Positions 44,471 through 53,966 of a stretch of 64,000 bases of DNA are shown in pieces (within the stretch, counting starts at the first letter, position 1; the number at the start of each line of letters is the position of its first letter). Below the pieces are notes generated by a model. The model ran no database searches. It saw only the letters and a program-made list of their open reading frames with translations, and was not told the DNA's origin. A program made the translations under genes and the position numbers. This DNA is from Theionarchaea archaeon (GTDB lineage Archaea; Methanobacteriota_B; Thermococci; Methanofastidiosales; SZ-28-30), in contig JACVGT010000011.1 in the NCBI GenBank assembly GCA_018992685.1, forward strand, positions 128,001 through 192,000, given 5' to 3'.

Positions 44471-46639
44471 ATGAGGGAGTTTAAGTCGTTGAAGCCGGAA
44501 GGTCTCCCTTTTGAATATGATGCAGGTCTTCATGGGGAGGAGCCTCTGGTTACCGTGGAAGAACGAGAACGGAAAATCGTACTTTCGTATATATTTCCAG
44601 GGTTCTATCTTTCAGACGACTCTCGCACCGTGGAGGGAGTCGTGATTCCTTTCAAGCAGGTGACCATACCCCACACTCAGTTCCTGGCAGAGAGTGGTAA
44701 ACCCTTGCTACCGTCATTCGGACGGTACGTGCAGATTCCTGATGACTGTCGCTATAGTGTCACGGTAGAACCAGGAAACCCAGTCTATTTTGAACCTGTT
44801 CTGATTCTGCCTGCTCAGGAGCTGCTGGTAGATGGCAAGAAGATAAATCGATTCGAGTATGACAAAGACTTCTACAGAACTGACAGGCTGTATCCTGAGG
44901 ACATTGTGGAGGTGACGGGTCCCCTCACTATTGATGAGTATCGTGCTCTGCTCATTCATGTGAGACCTCTCCAGTACAACCCCGCACGGAAAAGGCTCGT
45001 AGGGTTCAGTTCTGTTACGGTTACCATCCATCTCAGCCCGTCTCCAGGCGAAGGAGAACCCACAGATACTGCAATAGACAGGAAAGCCTACGGAAACTTC
45101 TTTTTGAACCCAGTACGCGGAATTGGGACCAGAGTTGAGATACCTCCTGCTCGGGCAGGAGCCCCCTTGCCAGGCGGAGGTCCAGAATTCCTCATTATCT
45201 ACCATGATCGATTCAAGGAACCCGCAGGAAAGCTGGCCTACTGGAAAACTATGCGGGGGCTTTCTACAGAGGTGGTCCCCCTTGATCAGGTTGGAACCAC
45301 GGTGAAGGCGATAAAAGAATATATTCGAAAGAGAAGACGAGCCGCAGGAAGTCGTCTTCAGTATGTTTTATTGTTCGGGGACGTTGAAGTCATCCCCTCA
45401 GAGAAGATTACAGGGAGCCCTTCAGGTCACAATATCACTGATTACTACTATTCTACAAAAGAGGATCCCACTCGCAACGACCAGTATGTGCTACCATGGC
45501 TTTCAGTGGGGCGGATTCCTCTCCAGACTGAAGAACAAGGATTGGGTGTGGTTGACAGGATCATATCATATGAGAGAGATCCACCCAAGAACCTTCACTA
45601 CTACAGGAAGATGGTATTTGCGGCCTACTTCCAGGACAAGGGTAGACGGGATGGCAGAGAAGACAGAGCCTACGTGAGAACCATGGAGACCATAGCTGCC
45701 CACATGACAGGGTTGGGATTTGAGGTGGAACGGGTGTATGTCACCAGCAACCCTGACGTGCGAGAATATGTGGACGGCAGTCTGGTACCTGAGACGGTGA
45801 GAACGCACCTTTTCAGTGAGGAAGAAGCCACTCAAAAGCTCATAGAAGCCGTCTCTGAAGGATGTTTGCTGGTCGGGCACAGAGACCACGGATCCTCCAC
45901 AGGATGGGTTCACCCCGCGTTCAAGACGCCCCACCTCGAATCCATCATCAGTGACACGCCGTCTGTCTTTTACAGCATCAACTGTTTGACAGGACGGTTT
46001 GATCTCCGGAGACCAAGGGAGTGTTTTGCTGAAAAGCTGCTTTCCATGGAAGGAGGTGCCCCTTCCCTTATTGCAGCCACAAGACCTTCCCACACCTGGC
46101 TGAATGACGATTTGATGAAAGCACTTTTTGATGCCATCTGGTCCGGGATTATCCCCACATTTCCAGGGTTTACAGCAAGTTATACCGTGAGGAACAACAG
46201 AATAGGAGATATCCTCAACTACGCCAGGACCTATCTGCCCCTGACATTGAGCGGAGGCCTGCGCCACGTCAAGGATCACCTGGAAATCTACCACGTCATT
46301 GGAGACCCTTCTCTTGAGATCTGGAAAGAGTGTCCCAGGGCCAATGCCATTGAGACTGAGTACCGACAGGGATACCTGAGAATTACCATGGATTGCTGTC
46401 CGGTGGGCACCGTCCTCACCCTCTGGTGTGGCAGTGATCTCGTTAAGAGATTGACACCCACTTCTACCTACGTAACCATATCTTTGAGAAATACAGCAGT
46501 CTACTCCCGTGCCAGAGAACCCATTGTCGTCTGTTTCTGGGCACCAGGGTATCGATTCCAGAGGATACAGGTTTCCACCCAGAACTCTGGCGCATCATCT
46601 CCATCGAGAGAAAAACGCCTATCTAATGACGGTTCCTGA
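44471..46639 (+). CDS. Gingipain-like C25 cysteine peptidase with propeptide
   Basis: YVLLFGD, TDYYY, VGRIP, catalytic RDHG and SINCLTG, IGDPSL. Confidence 0.88.
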   Translation: MREFKSLKPEGLPFEYDAGLHGEEPLVTVEERERKIVLSYIFPGFYLSDDSRTVEGVVIPFKQVTIPHTQFLAESGKPLLPSFGRYVQIPDDCRYSVTVEPGNPVYFEPVLILPAQELLVDGKKINRFEYDKDFYRTDRLYPEDIVEVTGPLTIDEYRALLIHVRPLQYNPARKRLVGFSSVTVTIHLSPSPGEGEPTDTAIDRKAYGNFFLNPVRGIGTRVEIPPARAGAPLPGGGPEFLIIYHDRFKEPAGKLAYWKTMRGLSTEVVPLDQVGTTVKAIKEYIRKRRRAAGSRLQYVLLFGDVEVIPSEKITGSPSGHNITDYYYSTKEDPTRNDQYVLPWLSVGRIPLQTEEQGLGVVDRIISYERDPPKNLHYYRKMVFAAYFQDKGRRDGREDRAYVRTMETIAAHMTGLGFEVERVYVTSNPDVREYVDGSLVPETVRTHLFSEEEATQKLIEAVSEGCLLVGHRDHGSSTGWVHPAFKTPHLESIISDTPSVFYSINCLTGRFDLRRPRECFAEKLLSMEGGAPSLIAATRPSHTWLNDDLMKALFDAIWSGIIPTFPGFTASYTVRNNRIGDILNYARTYLPLTLSGGLRHVKDHLEIYHVIGDPSLEIWKECPRANAIETEYRQGYLRITMDCCPVGTVLTLWCGSDLVKRLTPTSTYVTISLRNTAVYSRAREPIVVCFWAPGYRFQRIQVSTQNSGASSPSREKRLSNDGS

Positions 46640-47323: not shown

Positions 47324-48580
47324 ATGAAGAAAAAGACGGAACAGTATAAATTCAAAAAAATGCTCGATCATCTTTCATCTTTTAAAGGGAGACACACTGA
47401 GCTTGTCTCTTTGTATATACCCGCAGGGTATGAAATCCCCAAAGTAGCCCAGCAGATAAGGGATGAACAGGGGACCGCAGTCAATATTAAATCTACCACC
47501 ACCCGGAAGAACGTGTTGGGAGCACTAGAAAGGGTATCACAGCATCTCACCCTGTTCAAGGAGCCTCCTCCCAATGGCCTGGTGATCTTCTGTGGTAATG
47601 TCTCAGAGAGAGAAGGTGTTTCTGATATCCAGTTGTTTTCGTTTGAGCCCTTAAAGCCGTTGAGTACCCGAATTTACCGATGTGATCAGGAATTCGTGCT
47701 GGAGCCTTTATATGATATGCTGGAGGCAAAAGAGGTCTATGGGTTATTGATTGTAGAGAGAAATGAAGCCACTGTGGGGATACTGAAGGGGAAGAGTATC
47801 AGTATGGCGGATTACATGACCTCAGGAGTCCCGGGGAAGACCCGGGCAGGAGGACAGTCAGCTCATCGGTTCGAGAGGCTGAGAGATGCTGCAGACCATG
47901 AATTCAGGAAGAGGATCGCAGAACATGCCAACCGCATTTTCCTGGATGAAAAGAACCTGTCGGGAATTCTGGTAGGAGGTCCCGGACACACCAAGAACAA
48001 GTTTTTTGAGGGAGGGTTCCTGCATCACGAGTTGCAGAAAAAGGTTATTGGCATTGTGGATACCAGCTACAATGGGGAGTATGGGTTGAGGGAACTGGTG
48101 GACCGCGGAGAAGACATCCTGCAGAATCTGGAAATGACCCACGAACGGGACCTGGTGCAGCAATTTTTGAGGCAGCTGGTTAATGATGAGCCGGTGACGT
48201 ACGGAGAGAAGGAGGTGCGCTACGCCCTGCAGATAGGTGCTGTGGAGACAGTGTTGTTGTCAGAGGATGTGGACTTATACCGGGTTAGGATAGCATGCGA
48301 GGTCTGCAACCACACAGAAGAGATGACCCTCTCGGGCGAGAAACTGAGGAAGTTCAGAGAAGGAATTGCAGATTCGAATTGCCCTCAATGCGGTAATGTG
48401 AAGCTAGTCATCAAAGAGGAAAAGGAGCTGGTGGAAGACTTCACTGAATTGGCAGAGGCAACAGGAGCTGAAGTGGAATTGATTTCCACCGAGACTGAGG
48501 AAGGTTCGCAATTGTTCAAGGCATTTGGCGGGATAGCTGCTTTGTTGCGATTCAGGGTGGAACAGACTGTGTTGCCGTAG
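47324..48580 (+). CDS. prf1: Peptide chain release factor aRF1
   Basis: NIKS, YRCD, GGQS, Zn ribbon, FGGIAALLRF. Confidence 0.98.
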   Translation: MKKKTEQYKFKKMLDHLSSFKGRHTELVSLYIPAGYEIPKVAQQIRDEQGTAVNIKSTTTRKNVLGALERVSQHLTLFKEPPPNGLVIFCGNVSEREGVSDIQLFSFEPLKPLSTRIYRCDQEFVLEPLYDMLEAKEVYGLLIVERNEATVGILKGKSISMADYMTSGVPGKTRAGGQSAHRFERLRDAADHEFRKRIAEHANRIFLDEKNLSGILVGGPGHTKNKFFEGGFLHHELQKKVIGIVDTSYNGEYGLRELVDRGEDILQNLEMTHERDLVQQFLRQLVNDEPVTYGEKEVRYALQIGAVETVLLSEDVDLYRVRIACEVCNHTEEMTLSGEKLRKFREGIADSNCPQCGNVKLVIKEEKELVEDFTELAEATGAEVELISTETEEGSQLFKAFGGIAALLRFRVEQTVLP

Positions 48581-49877
48581 AGTTGATTGTCGATCCGACA
48601 ACCTTGATTTCTGTCTCTTTCTTGACTGATCCGTGTTTTCCTTGAGCATTTGCCGTGATTGTGTACTCCCCTGCAGCTTTATATGTATGTTCAGTAGGGA
48701 AGAAGTCGGGGTGGGACGTTTCTCCAGTGCTGCCGTCTCCCCAATCCCAAGTAACGGTATCGGCATTAATCACATTGCCATTAATCGTTACAACCTTGCC
48801 GCAGACTTGGGGGCAAGGAGGACCAACTATTCTTATCCGAGGTAGTGCCTCTTTTGAATAGACGTCATAGCGGACCAATGTCGAGGTGGACAGCAAATAT
48901 GCGTCATCAAGTGCTCGTAATATTGACCAGAGATCCTTCTGTTTGACAATTATCTGTCTAGTTCTGTTGAATTCCAAATCCAGAACATACTGGTTACAAA
49001 CATCATCCAGCGTATCTGGGGTAATCAGTGCCAGAGTTTTACTTTCCAGAATGCTGTAAAGTTTCCTGACCTTCTTTGGATCATTTTTCGACAATTCCAC
49101 CAGCAAATTGGTGTTGTCCACAAGATTTAGTTGTTCCAGGGTAGGTTTCTTTGATTCAACCTTCTCCATGAACACTTCCATGAAACTGAAGATTATCTCG
49201 AACTGGTCTCTGTTGAAAATGTAGATTCTCTTATTCCTTGTATCATAGATGCAGTCAACTTCCTTGTCTACAGTGAGGGCAGGCTCATCAAGTCTATTGA
49301 AGACTCCGTCTCTCACAAAGAGCGGAATCAATCCTGCATTCTCTAGTATCCTGCCTGGTGTGAATTTCCTGAATAGTACGAGTCCGGCGTCTCTTATATG
49401 TACAGCCATTGCCCAGGGAACTCCATTATCTTTGATATTATAACTGTCCAAACCAAGTGACTGCATGTCCTTGTATATCTTGGGAAAGTGATCAACCTTA
49501 CTTGCTTCAATTTGCTCGATTACAGACTGGTCGGCGACAATACCGGGACTATATTTGCGTAAACACAGTCCATCTATCTTTAGCAGACCATCCATTTTGT
49601 TTTCGCCTATTCCCTCTAATACTAAGCCAACATCCCAAGTAATATCTGTTTGAAGAACTTCGTACGTGATTTCATAGTCTCCGCTTGCTGGATTATTGTT
49701 TCCTTTCTTACCTCCTAGGTTCTGATCTTTCAATCTCCTGTTTTCTTCTTTCCGCTTTCGCTTATGTCTATTAATAAAGAATAGCTCAACACTACTTGGT
49801 GAAGCTCCTACGAGCCTGCCCTTCATACTTCCCAGTAACACGTTGGCATCTACTACATTGTTGGTATCTTCCTCCAT
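48552..49877 (-). CDS. kwaB: Kiwa KwaB-like (DUF4868) protein with C-terminal PKD domain
   Basis: FRKF..., LTVDKEVDCI, FEIIFSF, ILRALDDAYLLS typical of KwaB; then WDWGDG...HTY..AGEYTI (PKD). Confidence 0.78.
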   Translation of the reverse strand: MEEDTNNVVDANVLLGSMKGRLVGASPSSVELFFINRHKRKRKEENRRLKDQNLGGKKGNNNPASGDYEITYEVLQTDITWDVGLVLEGIGENKMDGLLKIDGLCLRKYSPGIVADQSVIEQIEASKVDHFPKIYKDMQSLGLDSYNIKDNGVPWAMAVHIRDAGLVLFRKFTPGRILENAGLIPLFVRDGVFNRLDEPALTVDKEVDCIYDTRNKRIYIFNRDQFEIIFSFMEVFMEKVESKKPTLEQLNLVDNTNLLVELSKNDPKKVRKLYSILESKTLALITPDTLDDVCNQYVLDLEFNRTRQIIVKQKDLWSILRALDDAYLLSTSTLVRYDVYSKEALPRIRIVGPPCPQVCGKVVTINGNVINADTVTWDWGDGSTGETSHPDFFPTEHTYKAAGEYTITANAQGKHGSVKKETEIKVVGSTINSTATQSVPP

Positions 49878-50431
49878 TACCTCACCTCCTCATCGTAGGT
49901 GTTATCTGATTCTGTGTCCTTTTTTCCTATATCAAGATATATATTATCTGACATTCTTGTGGCGTGAATCAGCTTTCCTCTTGCCAGCTTGAATTTTCTA
50001 GTTATAAGCACGATATTTCCACCCTTGACAGCTTCTACATCGTGGATCTTGAATCCAAAAACATTCAACAGCGGATTTATGAATATGAGATTCGAGTGGA
50101 TGTAGACGAAGAAAATCACAATCAGCAGTATCACAATGGAGGCAACATCCTGCCATTGAGTGAATTCGAACCCCAGAAAAACAATAATATATGCTATTAT
50201 GTAGTCCAATGCGTCACTGGTTCTGTTTTTCGATTTTTTGACATTGAATCTCCTAGGATTCCATTTCCTTGCAATCATAAAGACTGGGATCCAGATTGAA
50301 TTCACAAGTAACAATACAAGAATGGAAATCCAGAAGTTCCTTGATCCCACTTCAAAGTACTTGATAATGAAAATCAACAAGAGAGGTGAGTATGCACTGA
50401 CAAACAAGAGACTTCGAACCCAGCCCCTCAT
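49877..50431 (-). CDS. kwaA: Kiwa KwaA-like membrane protein
   Basis: LFVSAYSPL, YIIAYII, YIHSNLIFINPLLNVFGFKIH; about 4 TM; 1-bp overlap with kwaB. Confidence 0.82.
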   Translation of the reverse strand: MRGWVRSLLFVSAYSPLLLIFIIKYFEVGSRNFWISILVLLLVNSIWIPVFMIARKWNPRRFNVKKSKNRTSDALDYIIAYIIVFLGFEFTQWQDVASIVILLIVIFFVYIHSNLIFINPLLNVFGFKIHDVEAVKGGNIVLITRKFKLARGKLIHATRMSDNIYLDIGKKDTESDNTYDEEVR

Positions 50432-50664
50432 CTTCCCACCCCTGACAGAGCTCTGTAACCCTTCTCAAGTGATGACTGCCCTTTCCCCTGGCAGCATACT
50501 TCAGCACGTTTTGAGATGCGTGGAATCACCACAACCACCGCAGGTTCTTACGTGGTAGAAGTATTTACCCTTTTGGTATGTACTATTTTGTGTAAACCCA
50601 GGATTTACCTTTGGGTTTCCAAGGCATCAAAAAGCTTAAGTAGTCTCTCTTTTCTTCTGCACCA

Positions 50665-52368
50665 ATGTTTGAAATCAGGGCAAAAGATGGACTGGGAAGA
50701 ATTGGCCGCCTTGAAATACATGGAAAAGTAGTAGAAACTCCAGCACTCATGCCTGTAATCAACCCGAAAAAGGCTGAAATCACCCCCCGTGAAATACAGG
50801 AGAGGTTCAAGGCCCAGATGATTATTACCAATGCATATATTATCTATGAATCCTCCTTGCGGGAAGAAGCTGCATCCAGAGGGGTTCATACATTGCTGGA
50901 TTTTGACGGGGTTATTGCCACGGATTCAGGAAGCTTCCAGCTCATGAACTATGGGAATATTACCGTCACCAACCAAGAGATTATCGAATTCCAGCAGGCC
51001 ATCAAGTCTGATATATCAACCTTCCTGGATATCCCTACAACTCCTACCTGCACTTACGAAAGGGCTCTCACCGATCTGGAGGCTACCCTGGAGCGAGCTC
51101 GGGAAGCACAGAACCTCAAGAAAGGGTTCATGAATGGTACAGTCCAGGGAGGGAGGTTCCTTGATCTGCGGGAGAGGGCCTGTAAAGAACTGGCCACCAT
51201 GGACTTTGAGATCCATCCCCTGGGAGCTGTGGTCCCTTTCCTGTTGAAATACTCATTTACGCCCTTGATAGACATTATTCTCACCTGTAAGAAACATCTA
51301 CCAGTTGAGAGGCCTGTCCACTTGTTTGGAGCTGGCCATCCGCTGTTGTTGCCACTGGCGGTTTTGTGTGGATGTGATCTCTTTGATTCAGCAGCCTACA
51401 TTCTCTATGCCAAAGGAACCAGGTACCTGACACCATCAGGCACCAAGAATCTGGAAGACCTTGTCTATTTCCCTTGTGAGTGTCCCGAATGCTCAAGGAC
51501 CGATCCAGAAACAGTCTCCAGACTTTCCTCCCAGGAGAAAATTGCCTTTCTCACCAGACACAACCTGTATTCCACGTTTGGGGAACTCAAGAGGATAAAA
51601 CAGGCCATTCATGAAGGTTCGTTGTGGGAACTCGTAGAATCAAGAATCAGGTCACACCCCAATTTGCTGGAGTCATACCGTGTCATCAAGAAATACTCTG
51701 ACTTTATTGAAACTTATGAGCCGTTCACTAAGCGGAGTGGTTTTTCCTATACGGGGGCAGAAACCCAGTTCAGACCGGTGACAGCCCGGGCCAGATCCAG
51801 GATAGCCCGTATAAGAGGCGAAACCTTTGAACATCCCGTGTTTGGTCAGGTTCCCGTTTCCCTGAGCCAGACCTACCCTTTTCATACTGACGAGGTAGTC
51901 AGTCTGACAGAAAAGGACATGATCAGAGACATTGCAGTATACCAGTTTGGTGTGGAGGCTGCCCCCCTGTTTGAAAAAGCGAAAATCTCCTATGGAAGAA
52001 CGGGAAAAGTACGCCATCTGCACGAAGACGGCTCCCTCCTGGCCACCCTGCGTCCCATGGATGGGCTGTTCGTTTTGACTTTTGAGGGGGCACAGAAGCT
52101 GCATTCCCTGGTCCCACCTCCCCAAAGACGAGTTGTAGCAGATGAAGAAGCCATCCCCTTTGTGAAGGATGGTAAAGACTTGTTTTCTCGATTTGTTGTC
52201 TCCATGGATGAAACCCTGCGCGCGTACGAAGAAGTGCTCATAACTGATAGGGCAGACATCCTTCTTGGAGTGGGACGGCTGACGATGTCTCCACCAGAGG
52301 TTCAGGCTTTTAAGAGAGGAGTTGCAGTGTACTGCAGGAGAGGTGCTGATGCCATACGTGATCCTTGA
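50665..52368 (+). CDS. tgtA: Archaeosine tRNA-guanine(15) transglycosylase
   Basis: FEIRAKDGLGRIG, TDSGSFQL, HLFGAGHP, FDSAAY, CECPEC, C-terminal PUA domain. Confidence 0.97.
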   Translation: MFEIRAKDGLGRIGRLEIHGKVVETPALMPVINPKKAEITPREIQERFKAQMIITNAYIIYESSLREEAASRGVHTLLDFDGVIATDSGSFQLMNYGNITVTNQEIIEFQQAIKSDISTFLDIPTTPTCTYERALTDLEATLERAREAQNLKKGFMNGTVQGGRFLDLRERACKELATMDFEIHPLGAVVPFLLKYSFTPLIDIILTCKKHLPVERPVHLFGAGHPLLLPLAVLCGCDLFDSAAYILYAKGTRYLTPSGTKNLEDLVYFPCECPECSRTDPETVSRLSSQEKIAFLTRHNLYSTFGELKRIKQAIHEGSLWELVESRIRSHPNLLESYRVIKKYSDFIETYEPFTKRSGFSYTGAETQFRPVTARARSRIARIRGETFEHPVFGQVPVSLSQTYPFHTDEVVSLTEKDMIRDIAVYQFGVEAAPLFEKAKISYGRTGKVRHLHEDGSLLATLRPMDGLFVLTFEGAQKLHSLVPPPQRRVVADEEAIPFVKDGKDLFSRFVVSMDETLRAYEEVLITDRADILLGVGRLTMSPPEVQAFKRGVAVYCRRGADAIRDP

Positions 52369-52999
52369 TTCTCAGACAAAGAAGAGAGAATTGAAGAAAG
52401 TTGCCCCCTCCCTGTACTACTGTACTCCAGATAGGCTGAAACGGTACCCCGCTGCATTGTGTTTCCAGAAGAGAAAAGTCAAAAAATACCGCCTTCAGCA
52501 GAGACAGAAGCATGTGGGTTACATCCTCATGTGGTACAGGATCGAAAATCACGCAGACAAGAACCGTAAAATCGTGCACCGCATGATCGAGAAATCGTTG
52601 GGATTCCCTGTTGCCCGCTCATTGATCGCCTTCCCCTATATACACTATGAGTCAGATATGCCCTTCCTATCTCCCCAGAGGATTTTCACCCGTGCCCAGA
52701 GCTTGGATATTAATATGTCCAGGGTTGGTGTCCTCACCCCCCTCGGGAAGACTCATGAACGCTTGCGAGAAAGAGCAGAGCACTATATGAGAAGCAAGTA
52801 CGAACATCTCATACGACGGGTCTTGAAAGCTCCTCATGACAGGAGGACACGGAGTGAGATTCGCCAGAGCTATAAGAAACTGAAGCACAAGGGAAGAACA
52901 TTATCTGCAATTCTAGGAACTGATGTAACAAAGTTGGAGAGAAAGACATATACTATCATCTGGAAGTGGGAAAAAATAGGACAGACACAAAAAAAATAA
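52349..52999 (+). CDS. Basic hypothetical protein coupled to tgtA
   Basis: ATG at 52349 after RBS gaggtg; overlaps the tgtA end; K/R-rich. Confidence 0.7.
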   Translation: MPYVILDSQTKKRELKKVAPSLYYCTPDRLKRYPAALCFQKRKVKKYRLQQRQKHVGYILMWYRIENHADKNRKIVHRMIEKSLGFPVARSLIAFPYIHYESDMPFLSPQRIFTRAQSLDINMSRVGVLTPLGKTHERLRERAEHYMRSKYEHLIRRVLKAPHDRRTRSEIRQSYKKLKHKGRTLSAILGTDVTKLERKTYTIIWKWEKIGQTQKK

Positions 53000-53141
53000 A
53001 TGGAAAATTTTTGAGATTTTTATTTGCAAATGTGATATAAATCGGCGATCTGAAACTTATTTTTTATTAAAATCGATGAAGCTGCCTGTCCTGTTGATTT
53101 ATTCTTTTTTTATGCAATATTTGAAGTTTTGCGAGTGCAGC

Positions 53142-53160
53142 GAAAAGATTTTATAAACGG
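53142..53160 (+). promoter_or_regulatory. BRE/TATA promoter, identical copy at 53746-53764
   Basis: gaaaagattttataaacgg ends 28 bp before the ATG of both LysW-like genes. Confidence 0.75.
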
Positions 53161-53188
53161 TAAAAGATCAAGGCGGGAGGTGATACAC

Positions 53189-53362
53189 ATGATACTGGAA
53201 TGCCCCATCTGTGATGCAACGATCACAATAAACAATCCCAAGGAAGGAGCCATTGTGGTATGCGAGGAATGTGATACAGAGTTCGAGCTTGTTCAGTTCG
53301 ATGATGAATGGGATCTCTTGGAAGTTGGAGAAGAAGACTGGGAAGAGGAAGAGGATTTCTGA
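53189..53362 (+). CDS. LysW-like Zn-ribbon acidic protein, copy 1
   Basis: CPIC...CEEC, ends EEDWEEEEDF; RBS ggaggtga. Confidence 0.8.
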   Translation: MILECPICDATITINNPKEGAIVVCEECDTEFELVQFDDEWDLLEVGEEDWEEEEDF

Positions 53363-53792
53363 TTTATCTTCCTTGACTTTTTTTATTTTCATGCATGGAG
53401 TTAGCTTCAAATCATTGCTTCTTAATTTTTGAATATCCTGATGAGTACAGACTTCTCAAGAAGACACGAATTGCTGAGTGGATTCTTGTGGGAAGACTAT
53501 GAGACGCTCTCTGTGAACTCTGTGTCTTGTGAATGCGGGCAGGGCGCACGCTGATGCTGTGAAAGCTTTTGATGGAATAATAGGACAGACACCGGGTAAC
53601 TTAGAATGACGAGAAAGAGGAGATTATGAGGTAGCTCCATATTGAGTGACATTCTGTAATTTATTTTTTCATTTTTATTATCCATGGTGCCGATAAGAAG
53701 GGTTAAATCCATCTTTTGACGTGTAACACCACGAGGAAATCAATAGAAAAGATTTTATAAACGGGCTAATCAACGCCACCGAGGTGTTCTAC

Positions 53793-53966
53793 ATGATGTT
53801 GGAGTGTCCAATTTGTGACGCCGCTATCAACGTGAAGAATCCACAAGAAGGAGATATCGTTACCTGCAAGGAATGCGATACAGAGTTCGAGCTTGTTCAG
53901 TTCGATGATGAATGGGATCTCTTAGAAGTGGGAGAGGAAGACTGGGAAGAGGATAAAGATCTCTAA
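53793..53966 (+). CDS. LysW-like Zn-ribbon acidic protein, copy 2
   Basis: CPIC...CKEC, ends EEDWEEDKDL; RBS gaggtg. Confidence 0.8.
   Translation: MMLECPICDAAINVKNPQEGDIVTCKECDTEFELVQFDDEWDLLEVGEEDWEEDKDL

What the first reader, a model, noticed from the sequence alone, without database searches (positions are those of the whole stretch)
48552..50431. Archaeal Kiwa-like system whose KwaB is fused to a PKD (Ig-like) domain
Seen: a kwaA-kwaB pair (1-bp overlap) on the opposite strand between housekeeping prf1 and tgtA, overlapping the prf1 3' end by 29 bp. KwaB continues past its normal end into an approximately 85-aa PKD domain (WDWGDG, HTY) and has a basic insert (RHKRKRKEENRR). Known: Kiwa is a two-gene antiphage system with membrane KwaA and DNA-binding KwaB, and PKD domains are normally extracellular. 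Inference: a new KwaB architecture, perhaps adding a virus-protein sensor or decoy. It could instead be a chance capture of a surface-protein fragment.
Basis: partly seen in the sequence, partly recalled or inferred. Interest (0 to 1): 0.72.

Follow-up and report, generated by a model that had tools for sequence, protein, structure and literature searches.

The report
Archaeal Kiwa defence with Ig-like domain
A sediment archaeon carries a two-gene Kiwa cassette, predicted to fight viruses, whose predicted DNA-binding protein ends in an extra immunoglobulin-like (PKD) domain; the domain is kept, though fast-changing, across a small family of relatives and likely binds a virus protein inside the cell.

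Summary
Confirmed. kwaA (49877-50431, -) and kwaB (48552-49877, -) match KwaA/KwaB profiles. The KwaB model overlays solved KwaB (Z 18, residues 9-342) and then a PKD fold (Z 12.5, residues 343-432), joined where ordinary KwaBs end. A contig from a study not flagged as the source bridges the junction, so it is no assembly chimera.

It is not a singleton. Six full-length fused proteins (44-69% identical to this one) and one fragment were found; the six form one clade (100/99 support) with one truncated copy, and the named members are Theionarchaea. Only 4 of 71 KwaB-type representatives carry the domain. A same-genus genome has prf1 and tgtA about 308 bases apart with no cassette.

The PKD keeps its fold residues but changes faster than the core (estimated dN/dS about 0.5 against 0.3; neutrality rejected). 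It has no export signal, so it is inferred to be cytoplasmic. The 'basic insert' is a variable loop, not a conserved feature.

Best guess: a Kiwa variant whose PKD binds a viral protein, as the Ig-like sensor of pSlfn5 does. A structural role or a tolerated passenger remain real rivals. New variant of a known system; function untested.

The parts
49877..50431 (-). kwaA, 184 aa, membrane protein with four predicted helices
   Evidence: PADLOC KwaA best E 6.5e-25; profile of its cluster hits solved KwaA 9mrg, E 7.1e-8; hydrophobic windows 4-26, 32-56, 90-122; low-confidence model with helices 3-25, 31-56, 70-86, 93-124
48552..49877 (-). kwaB-PKD fusion gene, 441 aa, no signal peptide or membrane segment
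   Evidence: highest 19-residue hydropathy 0.88; model pLDDT 90.5, pTM 0.85
48852..49853 (-). KwaB core (residues 9-342)
   Evidence: Z 18.0-18.2, rmsd 4.4-4.5, 287-288 aligned to 9nyu, 9mtn, 9mrx
48594..48851 (-). PKD domain (residues about 343-428), starting right after the usual KwaB end motif Y-x-V-x-S-K
   Evidence: Pfam PKD 38.2 bits; Z 12.5, rmsd 2.2, 85 aligned to archaeal surface-protein PKD 1l0q; 13 of 82 positions invariant in six full-length homologues
   Evidence: block pLDDT 57-69 over residues 41-70; length and charge vary among fused relatives
48552..48593 (-). 14-residue tail running into the antisense of the prf1 3' end; site-specific
   Evidence: absent from P0005, P0016, P0017 and the L039 copy; prf1 ends at the same length in the empty allele; pLDDT 52-57
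50432..50664 (.). 233-base spacer between divergent kwaA and tgtA; promoters inferred, not located
   Evidence: the sigma-70 scan found no site in it and does not cover archaeal promoters
47324..48580 (+). prf1 (aRF1), left flank
50665..52368 (+). tgtA, right flank

Best explanation
This is a kwaA-kwaB Kiwa cassette inserted between prf1 and tgtA, whose KwaB carries a C-terminal PKD domain, likely captured once from a secreted PKD-repeat protein, which likely sits in the cytoplasm and likely binds a virus protein. Steps: (1) KwaA tetramers in the membrane would anchor KwaB dimers, and KwaB would bind incoming viral DNA (shown for E. coli Kiwa; inferred here from profiles and fold). (2) The fusion has one origin in a Theionarchaea lineage and has been kept at two or more genomic sites (shown, within the sample searched). 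(3) The PKD is cytoplasmic (inferred: no export signal, fused to a cytoplasmic protein). (4) It keeps its fold while its surface changes quickly, and binds a viral protein, either adding a trigger or aiming cue to Kiwa or trapping an anti-Kiwa protein (inferred by analogy; untested). Kiwa membership alone I put at about 0.9; the confidence below is for the whole chain including step 4.
For: Fold and profiles. One clade, 100/99 support. The PKD is intact in all 7 homologues that run past the KwaB end, whose cores are 45-74% identical. The junction is exactly at the normal KwaB end. PKD mean pairwise identity is 43% against 53% for the core, and 40% against 66% on strands. Against the sister-species protein P0003: PKD 60%, core 74% (Fisher p 0.019), while kwaA, tgtA and prf1 are 91, 91 and 96%. 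In a 12.5-kb sister-species contig the PKD is the longest block too diverged to align. Simulated dN/dS about 0.4-0.6 for the PKD and 0.2-0.3 for the core; 0 of 400 neutral runs reached the observed PKD identity. Precedent: the C-terminal Ig-like domain of pSlfn5 detects a phage tail chaperone, sets specificity and varies more than its effector (PMC13056530, abstract and passages).
Against: No ligand or activity is shown. Faster change is also what a loosely constrained beta-sandwich would show; estimated dN/dS stays below 1, so positive selection is not demonstrated. The contrast is not universal: this protein against the L039 copy gives PKD 45%, core 46%; P0003 against L039 gives 47% and 45%; P0003 against P0020 is not significant (p 0.35). 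Most invariant PKD residues are general fold residues also seen in surface-protein PKDs. E. coli Kiwa is reported to be triggered by membrane change and needs no such domain, and 67 of 71 KwaB-type representatives lack it. The pSlfn5 domain is Ig-like but is not called PKD in that paper (0 occurrences). Only 2 of 6 E. coli DNA-contact residues are identical here.
Confidence: 0.4

Rival explanations
1. Structural accessory: the PKD packs on KwaB or on a neighbouring KwaB or KwaA and spaces or stiffens the membrane lattice, or blocks the KwaA-free dimer-of-dimers contact that uses the KwaB C-terminal region. It has no viral ligand.
For: Three- to four-residue linker and whole-chain pTM 0.85 suggest a fixed placement. 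The N-A-D turn (371-373) and a basic residue at 413-414 are kept in the homologues; from recalled Ig topology these loops lie at the KwaB-proximal end. In E. coli the C-terminal region mediates the dimer-of-dimers contact.
Against: PKD strands, which would form a packing face, are the least conserved class (40%). The N-A turn is also common in unrelated PKDs. KwaA is much more conserved than KwaB (91% against 69-74%), which does not suggest co-adaptation to a fast-changing PKD.
Confidence: 0.3
2. Tolerated passenger: one old chance fusion, kept only under selection not to misfold, with no role in defence.
For: Single origin in a small clade; weaker constraint than the core; mostly fold residues invariant; one member of the clade, the truncated duplicate P0019, lacks it. 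The chance of no stop codon under neutrality over the sister-species distance is still 9-12%.
Against: One stop at the junction would remove it, yet 7 of 7 homologues that run past the KwaB end keep it whole, down to 45% core identity and at different sites. P0019 also lacks the last KwaB hairpin and looks like a decaying copy (dN/dS 0.39, 0.70 in its last third). Neutral change is rejected for the PKD.
Confidence: 0.2
3. Nucleic-acid grip: the PKD extends the DNA-binding surface of KwaB, as an Ig-like subdomain does in Druantia DruH.
For: [quoted passage not shown] Three E. coli DNA-contact residues are changed here. Two homologues have basic PKDs (+8, +4).
Against: Net charge of the seven PKDs is -1, -3, -2, +8, +4, +1, 0. 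The changed DNA-contact positions also vary among unfused KwaBs.
Confidence: 0.08
4. Artefact or recent accident: a misassembly, or a one-off read-through into a surface-gene fragment.
For: The genome is a metagenome assembly; the C-terminal tail does run into prf1 antisense.
Against: Contigs from a study not flagged as the source bridge the junction; homologous fusions exist; no other W-x-[FW]-G-D-G PKD was found in this 91% complete genome.
Confidence: 0.02

Closest known systems
Kiwa (KwaA + KwaB/DUF4868), E. coli O55:H7; bioRxiv 10.1101/2023.02.26.530102; PDB 9mrx, 9mtn, 9nyu, 9mrg
   Same: Gene order kwaA-kwaB; four-helix membrane KwaA; KwaB fold over its full length (Z 18); R21, D169, R233 and K234 positions kept as R37, D204, R271, K272 (R21 mapped by motif, the rest by my count on the alignment); patchy, mobile distribution.
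   Different: KwaB has about 85 extra residues forming a PKD domain and an expanded first hairpin loop; 16-18% structural-alignment identity; archaeal host. The paper reports split KwaB as its architectural variant; 'PKD', 'Ig-like' and 'fusion' occur 0 times in its main text.
pSlfn5, prokaryotic Schlafen with C-terminal Ig-like sensor (PMC13056530)
   Same: Cytoplasmic defence effector with a C-terminal beta-sandwich that varies more than the effector.
   Different: Different effector (tRNase against a DNA-binding lattice protein); common architecture (3.9% of pSlfns) against a rare one; sensor role tested there, not here; homology of the two Ig folds not tested.
PKD domains of secreted or surface repeat proteins (Pfam PF00801/PF18911; PDB 1l0q, 4xed; best sequence match P0133, 55 bits)
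   Same: Fold (Z 11-12.5, rmsd about 2) and the V-T-I-x-G, W-x-W-G-D-G, F-P, H-x-Y, Y-T-x-x-x-x-A pattern.
   Different: Single copy with no export signal, on a predicted cytoplasmic protein; the relatives are mostly long multi-PKD proteins, several with hydrophobic N-termini.
Unfused archaeal KwaB (P0025; P0022; P0023 cluster with ANME-1 names; Thermococcales-family loci L053-L056)
   Same: KwaB core; kwaA just upstream in L053-L055.
   Different: The nearest ones end within a few residues of the S-K motif; L053 and L055 lie beside genes that look like restriction-modification genes (read by eye).

Membership tests
Kiwa | Two adjacent co-oriented genes, kwaA then kwaB | tested here: met
   same order in L039 and G001
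Kiwa | KwaA profile match | tested here: met
   14 PADLOC KwaA models, best E 6.5e-25 over 2-167; solved KwaA E 7.1e-8. PADLOC's own system rules were not run.
Kiwa | KwaA has four membrane helices and a cytoplasmic beta-barrel | tested here: inconclusive
   four helices in a low-confidence model (pLDDT 45, 6 sequences), barrel not modelled; three hydropathy windows above 1.6
Kiwa | KwaB carries DUF4868 and the two-domain KwaB fold | tested here: met
   Pfam 87 bits against cut-off 26.3; Z 18.2, rmsd 4.5, 287 aligned
Kiwa | DNA-contact residues (N134, R142, R167, D169, K187, R233 in E. coli) | tested here: inconclusive
   map to K171, E179, T202, D204, D224, R271: 2 identical, 1 basic, 3 changed; basic neighbours R170, R176, R223, K272 are kept as in most unfused KwaBs
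Kiwa | KwaB dimers bound to KwaA tetramers | not tested
Kiwa | Protection against viruses or plasmids | not testable with these tools
   needs an assay
NCBIfam equivalogs KwaA NF041622 / KwaB NF041623 | Whole-protein score above the curated cut-off | tested here: not met
   70 against 100 and 46.1 against 200 bits; not filed under these narrower naming models
PKD domain (PF00801) | Profile above cut-off, WDFGDG-type motif, Ig-like beta-sandwich | tested here: met
   38.2 against 23.5 bits; Z 12.5 to 1l0q. In homologues Pfam scores are lower: 32.5 (P0020), 21.4, 18.4, and no hit at E 0.01 for three.
Extracellular PKD proteins | Export signal or membrane anchor | tested here: not met
   highest hydropathy 0.85-1.11 in six fused proteins; a simple window scan, no signal-peptide predictor
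Ig-like phage-sensor fusions (pSlfn5 type) | Domain binds a viral protein and sets specificity | not testable with these tools
   needs swaps and pull-downs
Ig-like phage-sensor fusions (pSlfn5 type) | Ig-like domain varies more than the effector | tested here: met
   43% against 53% mean pairwise identity; holds in most pairs but not those with L039 noted above; not specific to sensors

The most novel reading that the evidence does not exclude
A Kiwa lineage in Theionarchaea recruited a surface-adhesion PKD domain into the cytoplasm as a receptor for virus proteins. That would give a system described as sensing membrane change a second, protein-level input: an archaeal defence effector with an evolving Ig-fold recognition module, swappable to re-aim Kiwa.
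Probability: 0.3. Interest if true: 0.75.

Novelty: new variant of a known kind. Interest (0 to 1): 0.5.

Why it matters
Kiwa's trigger is still a hypothesis (membrane bending at the attachment site), and the only architectural variant in the mechanism paper is a split KwaB. A natural fusion with a clean junction gives a direct test, with and without the domain and with swaps, of whether Kiwa can take a protein cue. It would also add an archaeal PKD-fold case to the few cytoplasmic Ig-like domains known in antiviral defence. The limits: the clade is small and uncultured, its viruses are unknown, and archaeal Kiwa itself is not new (10.1101/2024.10.26.620412, passage, lists Kiwa as more frequent in archaea than in bacteria).

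Tried and rejected
Complex prediction (KwaB-PKD dimer): not available, nothing folded.

Protein atlas: no answer for P0001 or P0003.

KwaA model: pLDDT 45, not used for a fold search.

Sequencing runs: no RNA holder listed, so nothing on expression.

Other collections: no relative by pattern scan in viral contigs or GTDB genome contigs. The PKD scan of GTDB gave one 14-residue match, L047, treated as chance. Phage records: no match. Plasmids: one unfused KwaB at 25.5%. Shorter standalone relatives of the PKD: 0 of 22 candidates.

Insertion signature: no att-like or terminal repeats stood out; five short two-copy direct repeats and one inverted pair. Promoter and terminator counts were at shuffle level (6 against 5.4, 2 against 2.0).

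Direct dN/dS against L039: dS saturated (2.2-3.3), not used.

Local donor: none; the PKD alignment gave only weak matches (E 9e-4 to 9e-3) in 5 of 33 other order genomes, not followed up.

Basic insert as a DNA clamp: rejected, because length and charge are not conserved. The 29-bp prf1 overlap as a regulatory feature: rejected, because the tail is absent in four homologues and prf1's end is unchanged in the empty allele.

Earlier-findings look-ups: nothing by sequence or by the full word set; three other-genome notes do not bear on this.

Literature: 0 papers for DUF4868 + PKD. Listings show no Kiwa fusion in titles or abstract starts; only four papers were opened. Most subscription journals and bioRxiv supplements, including the Kiwa paper's protein tables, could not be seen and may bear on the novelty claim.
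Full report
OBSERVATION. kwaA (49877-50431, minus strand, 184 aa) and kwaB (48552-49877, minus strand, 441 aa) share one base, and kwaB overlaps the end of prf1 by 29 bases. The flanks are aRF1 and TgtA on the plus strand. KwaA hits 14 PADLOC KwaA models (best E 6.5e-25) and KwaB hits 8 KwaB models (best E 8.9e-17). Pfam gives KwaB at residues 155-331 (87 bits) and PKD at 374-426 (38.2 bits), both above cut-off. Both proteins score below NCBIfam's narrower equivalog cut-offs. The cassette is poorer in G+C than its flanks: kwaA 0.386, KwaB core 0.414, PKD 0.484, prf1 and tgtA 0.49, genome 0.467.

NOT AN ASSEMBLY ERROR. Of the runs laid, X5 (study P3, not flagged as the source) has a 1,589-base contig over 48493-50081 with one difference, spanning the prf1 end, the PKD, KwaB and the kwaA end. 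X8 (also P3) bridges the junction with no difference. X6 (study P4) covers it in two overlapping pieces. X4 holds the whole stretch but may be the source. No RNA run was listed.

ANATOMY. An AlphaFold2 model from 59 aligned sequences has mean pLDDT 90.5 and pTM 0.85. Residues 9-342 overlay solved E. coli KwaB end to end (Z 18.0-18.2, rmsd 4.4-4.5, 287-288 aligned). Residues 343-432 overlay PKD domains, best the archaeal surface protein 1l0q (Z 12.5, rmsd 2.2, 85 aligned) (Foldseek agrees). Ordinary KwaBs end a few residues after the Y-x-x-x-S-K motif, and the PKD begins three to four residues after it. None of six fused proteins has a hydrophobic stretch above 1.11, so the PKD is inferred to stay in the cytoplasm with KwaB. 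The 'basic insert' is an expanded loop at the first hairpin. The segment is 37 residues here, 13-56 in fused relatives and 7-17 in 51 unfused KwaBs, with net charge -4 to +8 in the fused set. The last 14 residues, which cause the prf1 overlap, are absent from four homologues.

DISTRIBUTION. The fusion is not a singleton. Full-length fused relatives are P0003 (69%; cluster of 4), P0016 (59%), P0017 (45%), P0005 (44%) and the L039 copy (44%), plus fragment P0020 (68%). Those with names are Theionarchaea; the kwaA beside the L039 copy clusters with Theionarchaea proteins. Among the best 150 of 1,719 hits in the 50%-identity library, 71 carry a KwaB core and 4 also carry the PKD; a fifth, P0004, is a fragment whose cluster-mate P0016 has it. 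For the tree I used 58 KwaB cores: 6 fused, 1 truncated copy and 51 unfused, leaving out fragments and two long-tailed proteins (P0114, P0145). The 6 fused rows and the truncated copy form one clade, support 100/99, in all 200 bootstrap trees; the root is a midpoint for drawing only. The KwaB family was found in 1 of 34 genomes of the order (this one) and 5 of 133 of the phylum. The three of the other four that I read show no W-x-W-G-D motif.

SITE. G001 (same genus) has kwaA upstream of tgtA at the same place; its contig ends 29 bases into kwaB, so the gene lies in a gap. A 12.5-kb contig of a relative in run X13 has the same layout through the PKD-sized block. In G002 (same genus, 84% complete) the prf1 contig and the tgtA contig overlap by 69 bases (68 match), which puts the genes about 308 bases apart with no cassette. 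kwaA was not found in G002 or G003. L039 carries the cassette among unrelated genes. So the cassette is an insertion that has occupied at least two sites. No att-like repeats stood out.

SELECTION. All 7 homologues that run past the KwaB end keep a whole PKD with V363, G367, N371, A372, W377, W379, G380, D381, P394, Y399, Y405, T406 and A411 invariant. The PKD changes faster than the core: mean pairwise identity 43% against 53%, invariant positions 13 of 82 against 80 of 275. I tested 4 of 21 pairs by Fisher test: p 0.019, 0.033, 0.0015 and 0.35; the pairs are not independent. Two pairs with L039 show no contrast. G000 against G001 gives dS 0.51-0.59 and dN/dS 0.04-0.10 for prf1, tgtA and kwaA. 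I had no DNA for the sister kwaB, so I simulated protein identity at that distance. The observed 60% for the PKD fits dN/dS about 0.4-0.6, and 74% for the core about 0.2-0.3; neutrality never reached 60% (0 of 400 at each of two distances). This assumes that P0003 belongs to the G001 lineage (its neighbour accession P0008 reads like the G001 kwaA) and that there was no allele exchange. Conclusion: purifying selection, weaker on the PKD; positive selection is not shown.

ORIGIN OF THE PKD. A profile of the seven PKDs finds no second copy in this genome. Among fetched proteins its best matches are PKD repeats in long proteins with further extracellular-type domains (P0133 55 bits, P0039, P0070, P0129, P0018), mostly unnamed. 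Capture from such a protein is inferred; the donor is not identified. The viral fold library gives two full-length KwaB-sized matches and generic Ig matches.

MECHANISM. From 10.1101/2023.02.26.530102 (abstract, introduction, results and discussion read; methods only as passages; supplements not seen): KwaA tetramers and KwaB dimers form a membrane lattice, KwaB binds DNA without sequence preference near the entry site, and the DNA mimic Gam blocks it. The core here is predicted to work the same way. R37, K171, D204, R271 and K272 are kept, while three of six E. coli DNA contacts differ, as they do in many unfused KwaBs. For the PKD I favour binding of a viral protein (0.4). The grounds are its terminal position, its retention, its faster change, and the tested case of pSlfn5, where a C-terminal Ig-like domain detects a phage tail chaperone and diverges more than its effector (PMC13056530, abstract and passages). 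A structural role (0.3), a passenger (0.2) and DNA binding as in DruH (0.08; 10.64898/2026.05.12.722862, two passages) are not excluded. No complex model could be run, so the position of the PKD in the dimer is open.

NOVELTY. No paper in the searched library holds both DUF4868 and PKD, and the Kiwa mechanism paper does not mention PKD, Ig-like domains or fusions. The other searches were seen as listings only. Archaeal Kiwa is known (10.1101/2024.10.26.620412, passages). Three of six fused homologues scanned have no Pfam PKD hit at E 0.01 and the named ones are labelled only DUF4868, which may be why the fusion went unnoticed.

VERDICT. Real, conserved, rare and apparently undescribed: a new variant of Kiwa. 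Interest 0.5.

Noticed in passing
L039:802-1683: A second kwaB (293 aa, about 82% DNA identity to the fused copy) lies upstream of kwaA-kwaB-PKD. It lacks the loop expansion and stops about 15 residues before the normal KwaB end. The same length recurs in a cluster of 3. dN/dS against the full copy is 0.39: a decaying duplicate, or a PKD-less partner subunit.
   Followed up: partly
P0013 and P0020 (protein ids; no locus held): Two partial kwaB-PKD proteins; P0020 differs from P0003, the full-length member of P0013's cluster, at 11% of core and 17% of PKD positions. G001 breaks at the start of kwaB. Allelic variety in kwaB may be breaking assemblies at this gene.
   Followed up: partly
L033:29-673: The G001 KwaA has a 30-residue longer, lysine-rich C-terminal tail than the window's KwaA (214 against 184 aa), similar in character to the KwaB loop expansion.
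   Followed up: no
L049 and L050 (G002 contig ends): The empty prf1-tgtA spacer is broken in the assembly at a 69-base overlap with one mismatch; it may be a repeat or a strain difference. It is not repeated in G000.
   Followed up: partly
L053:482-2220, L054:458-2220, L055:564-2169: Kiwa pairs in the family f5 genomes of the same class, with 358-386 aa KwaB and no visible PKD motif; L053 sits between genes that look like type I restriction-modification subunits (by eye).
   Followed up: no
window 53129-53362 and 53784-53966 (+): Two near-identical small zinc-ribbon ORFs with acidic ends, recalling LysW-type carrier proteins (recalled, not tested) but without the usual terminal motif.
   Followed up: no
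window 44471-46639 (+): 722-aa peptidase C25 (gingipain family) with propeptide; its N-terminus shows no obvious signal peptide by eye.
   Followed up: no
window 52322-52999 (+): 225-aa basic ORF overlapping the tgtA end; only a sub-threshold Pfam match.
   Followed up: no
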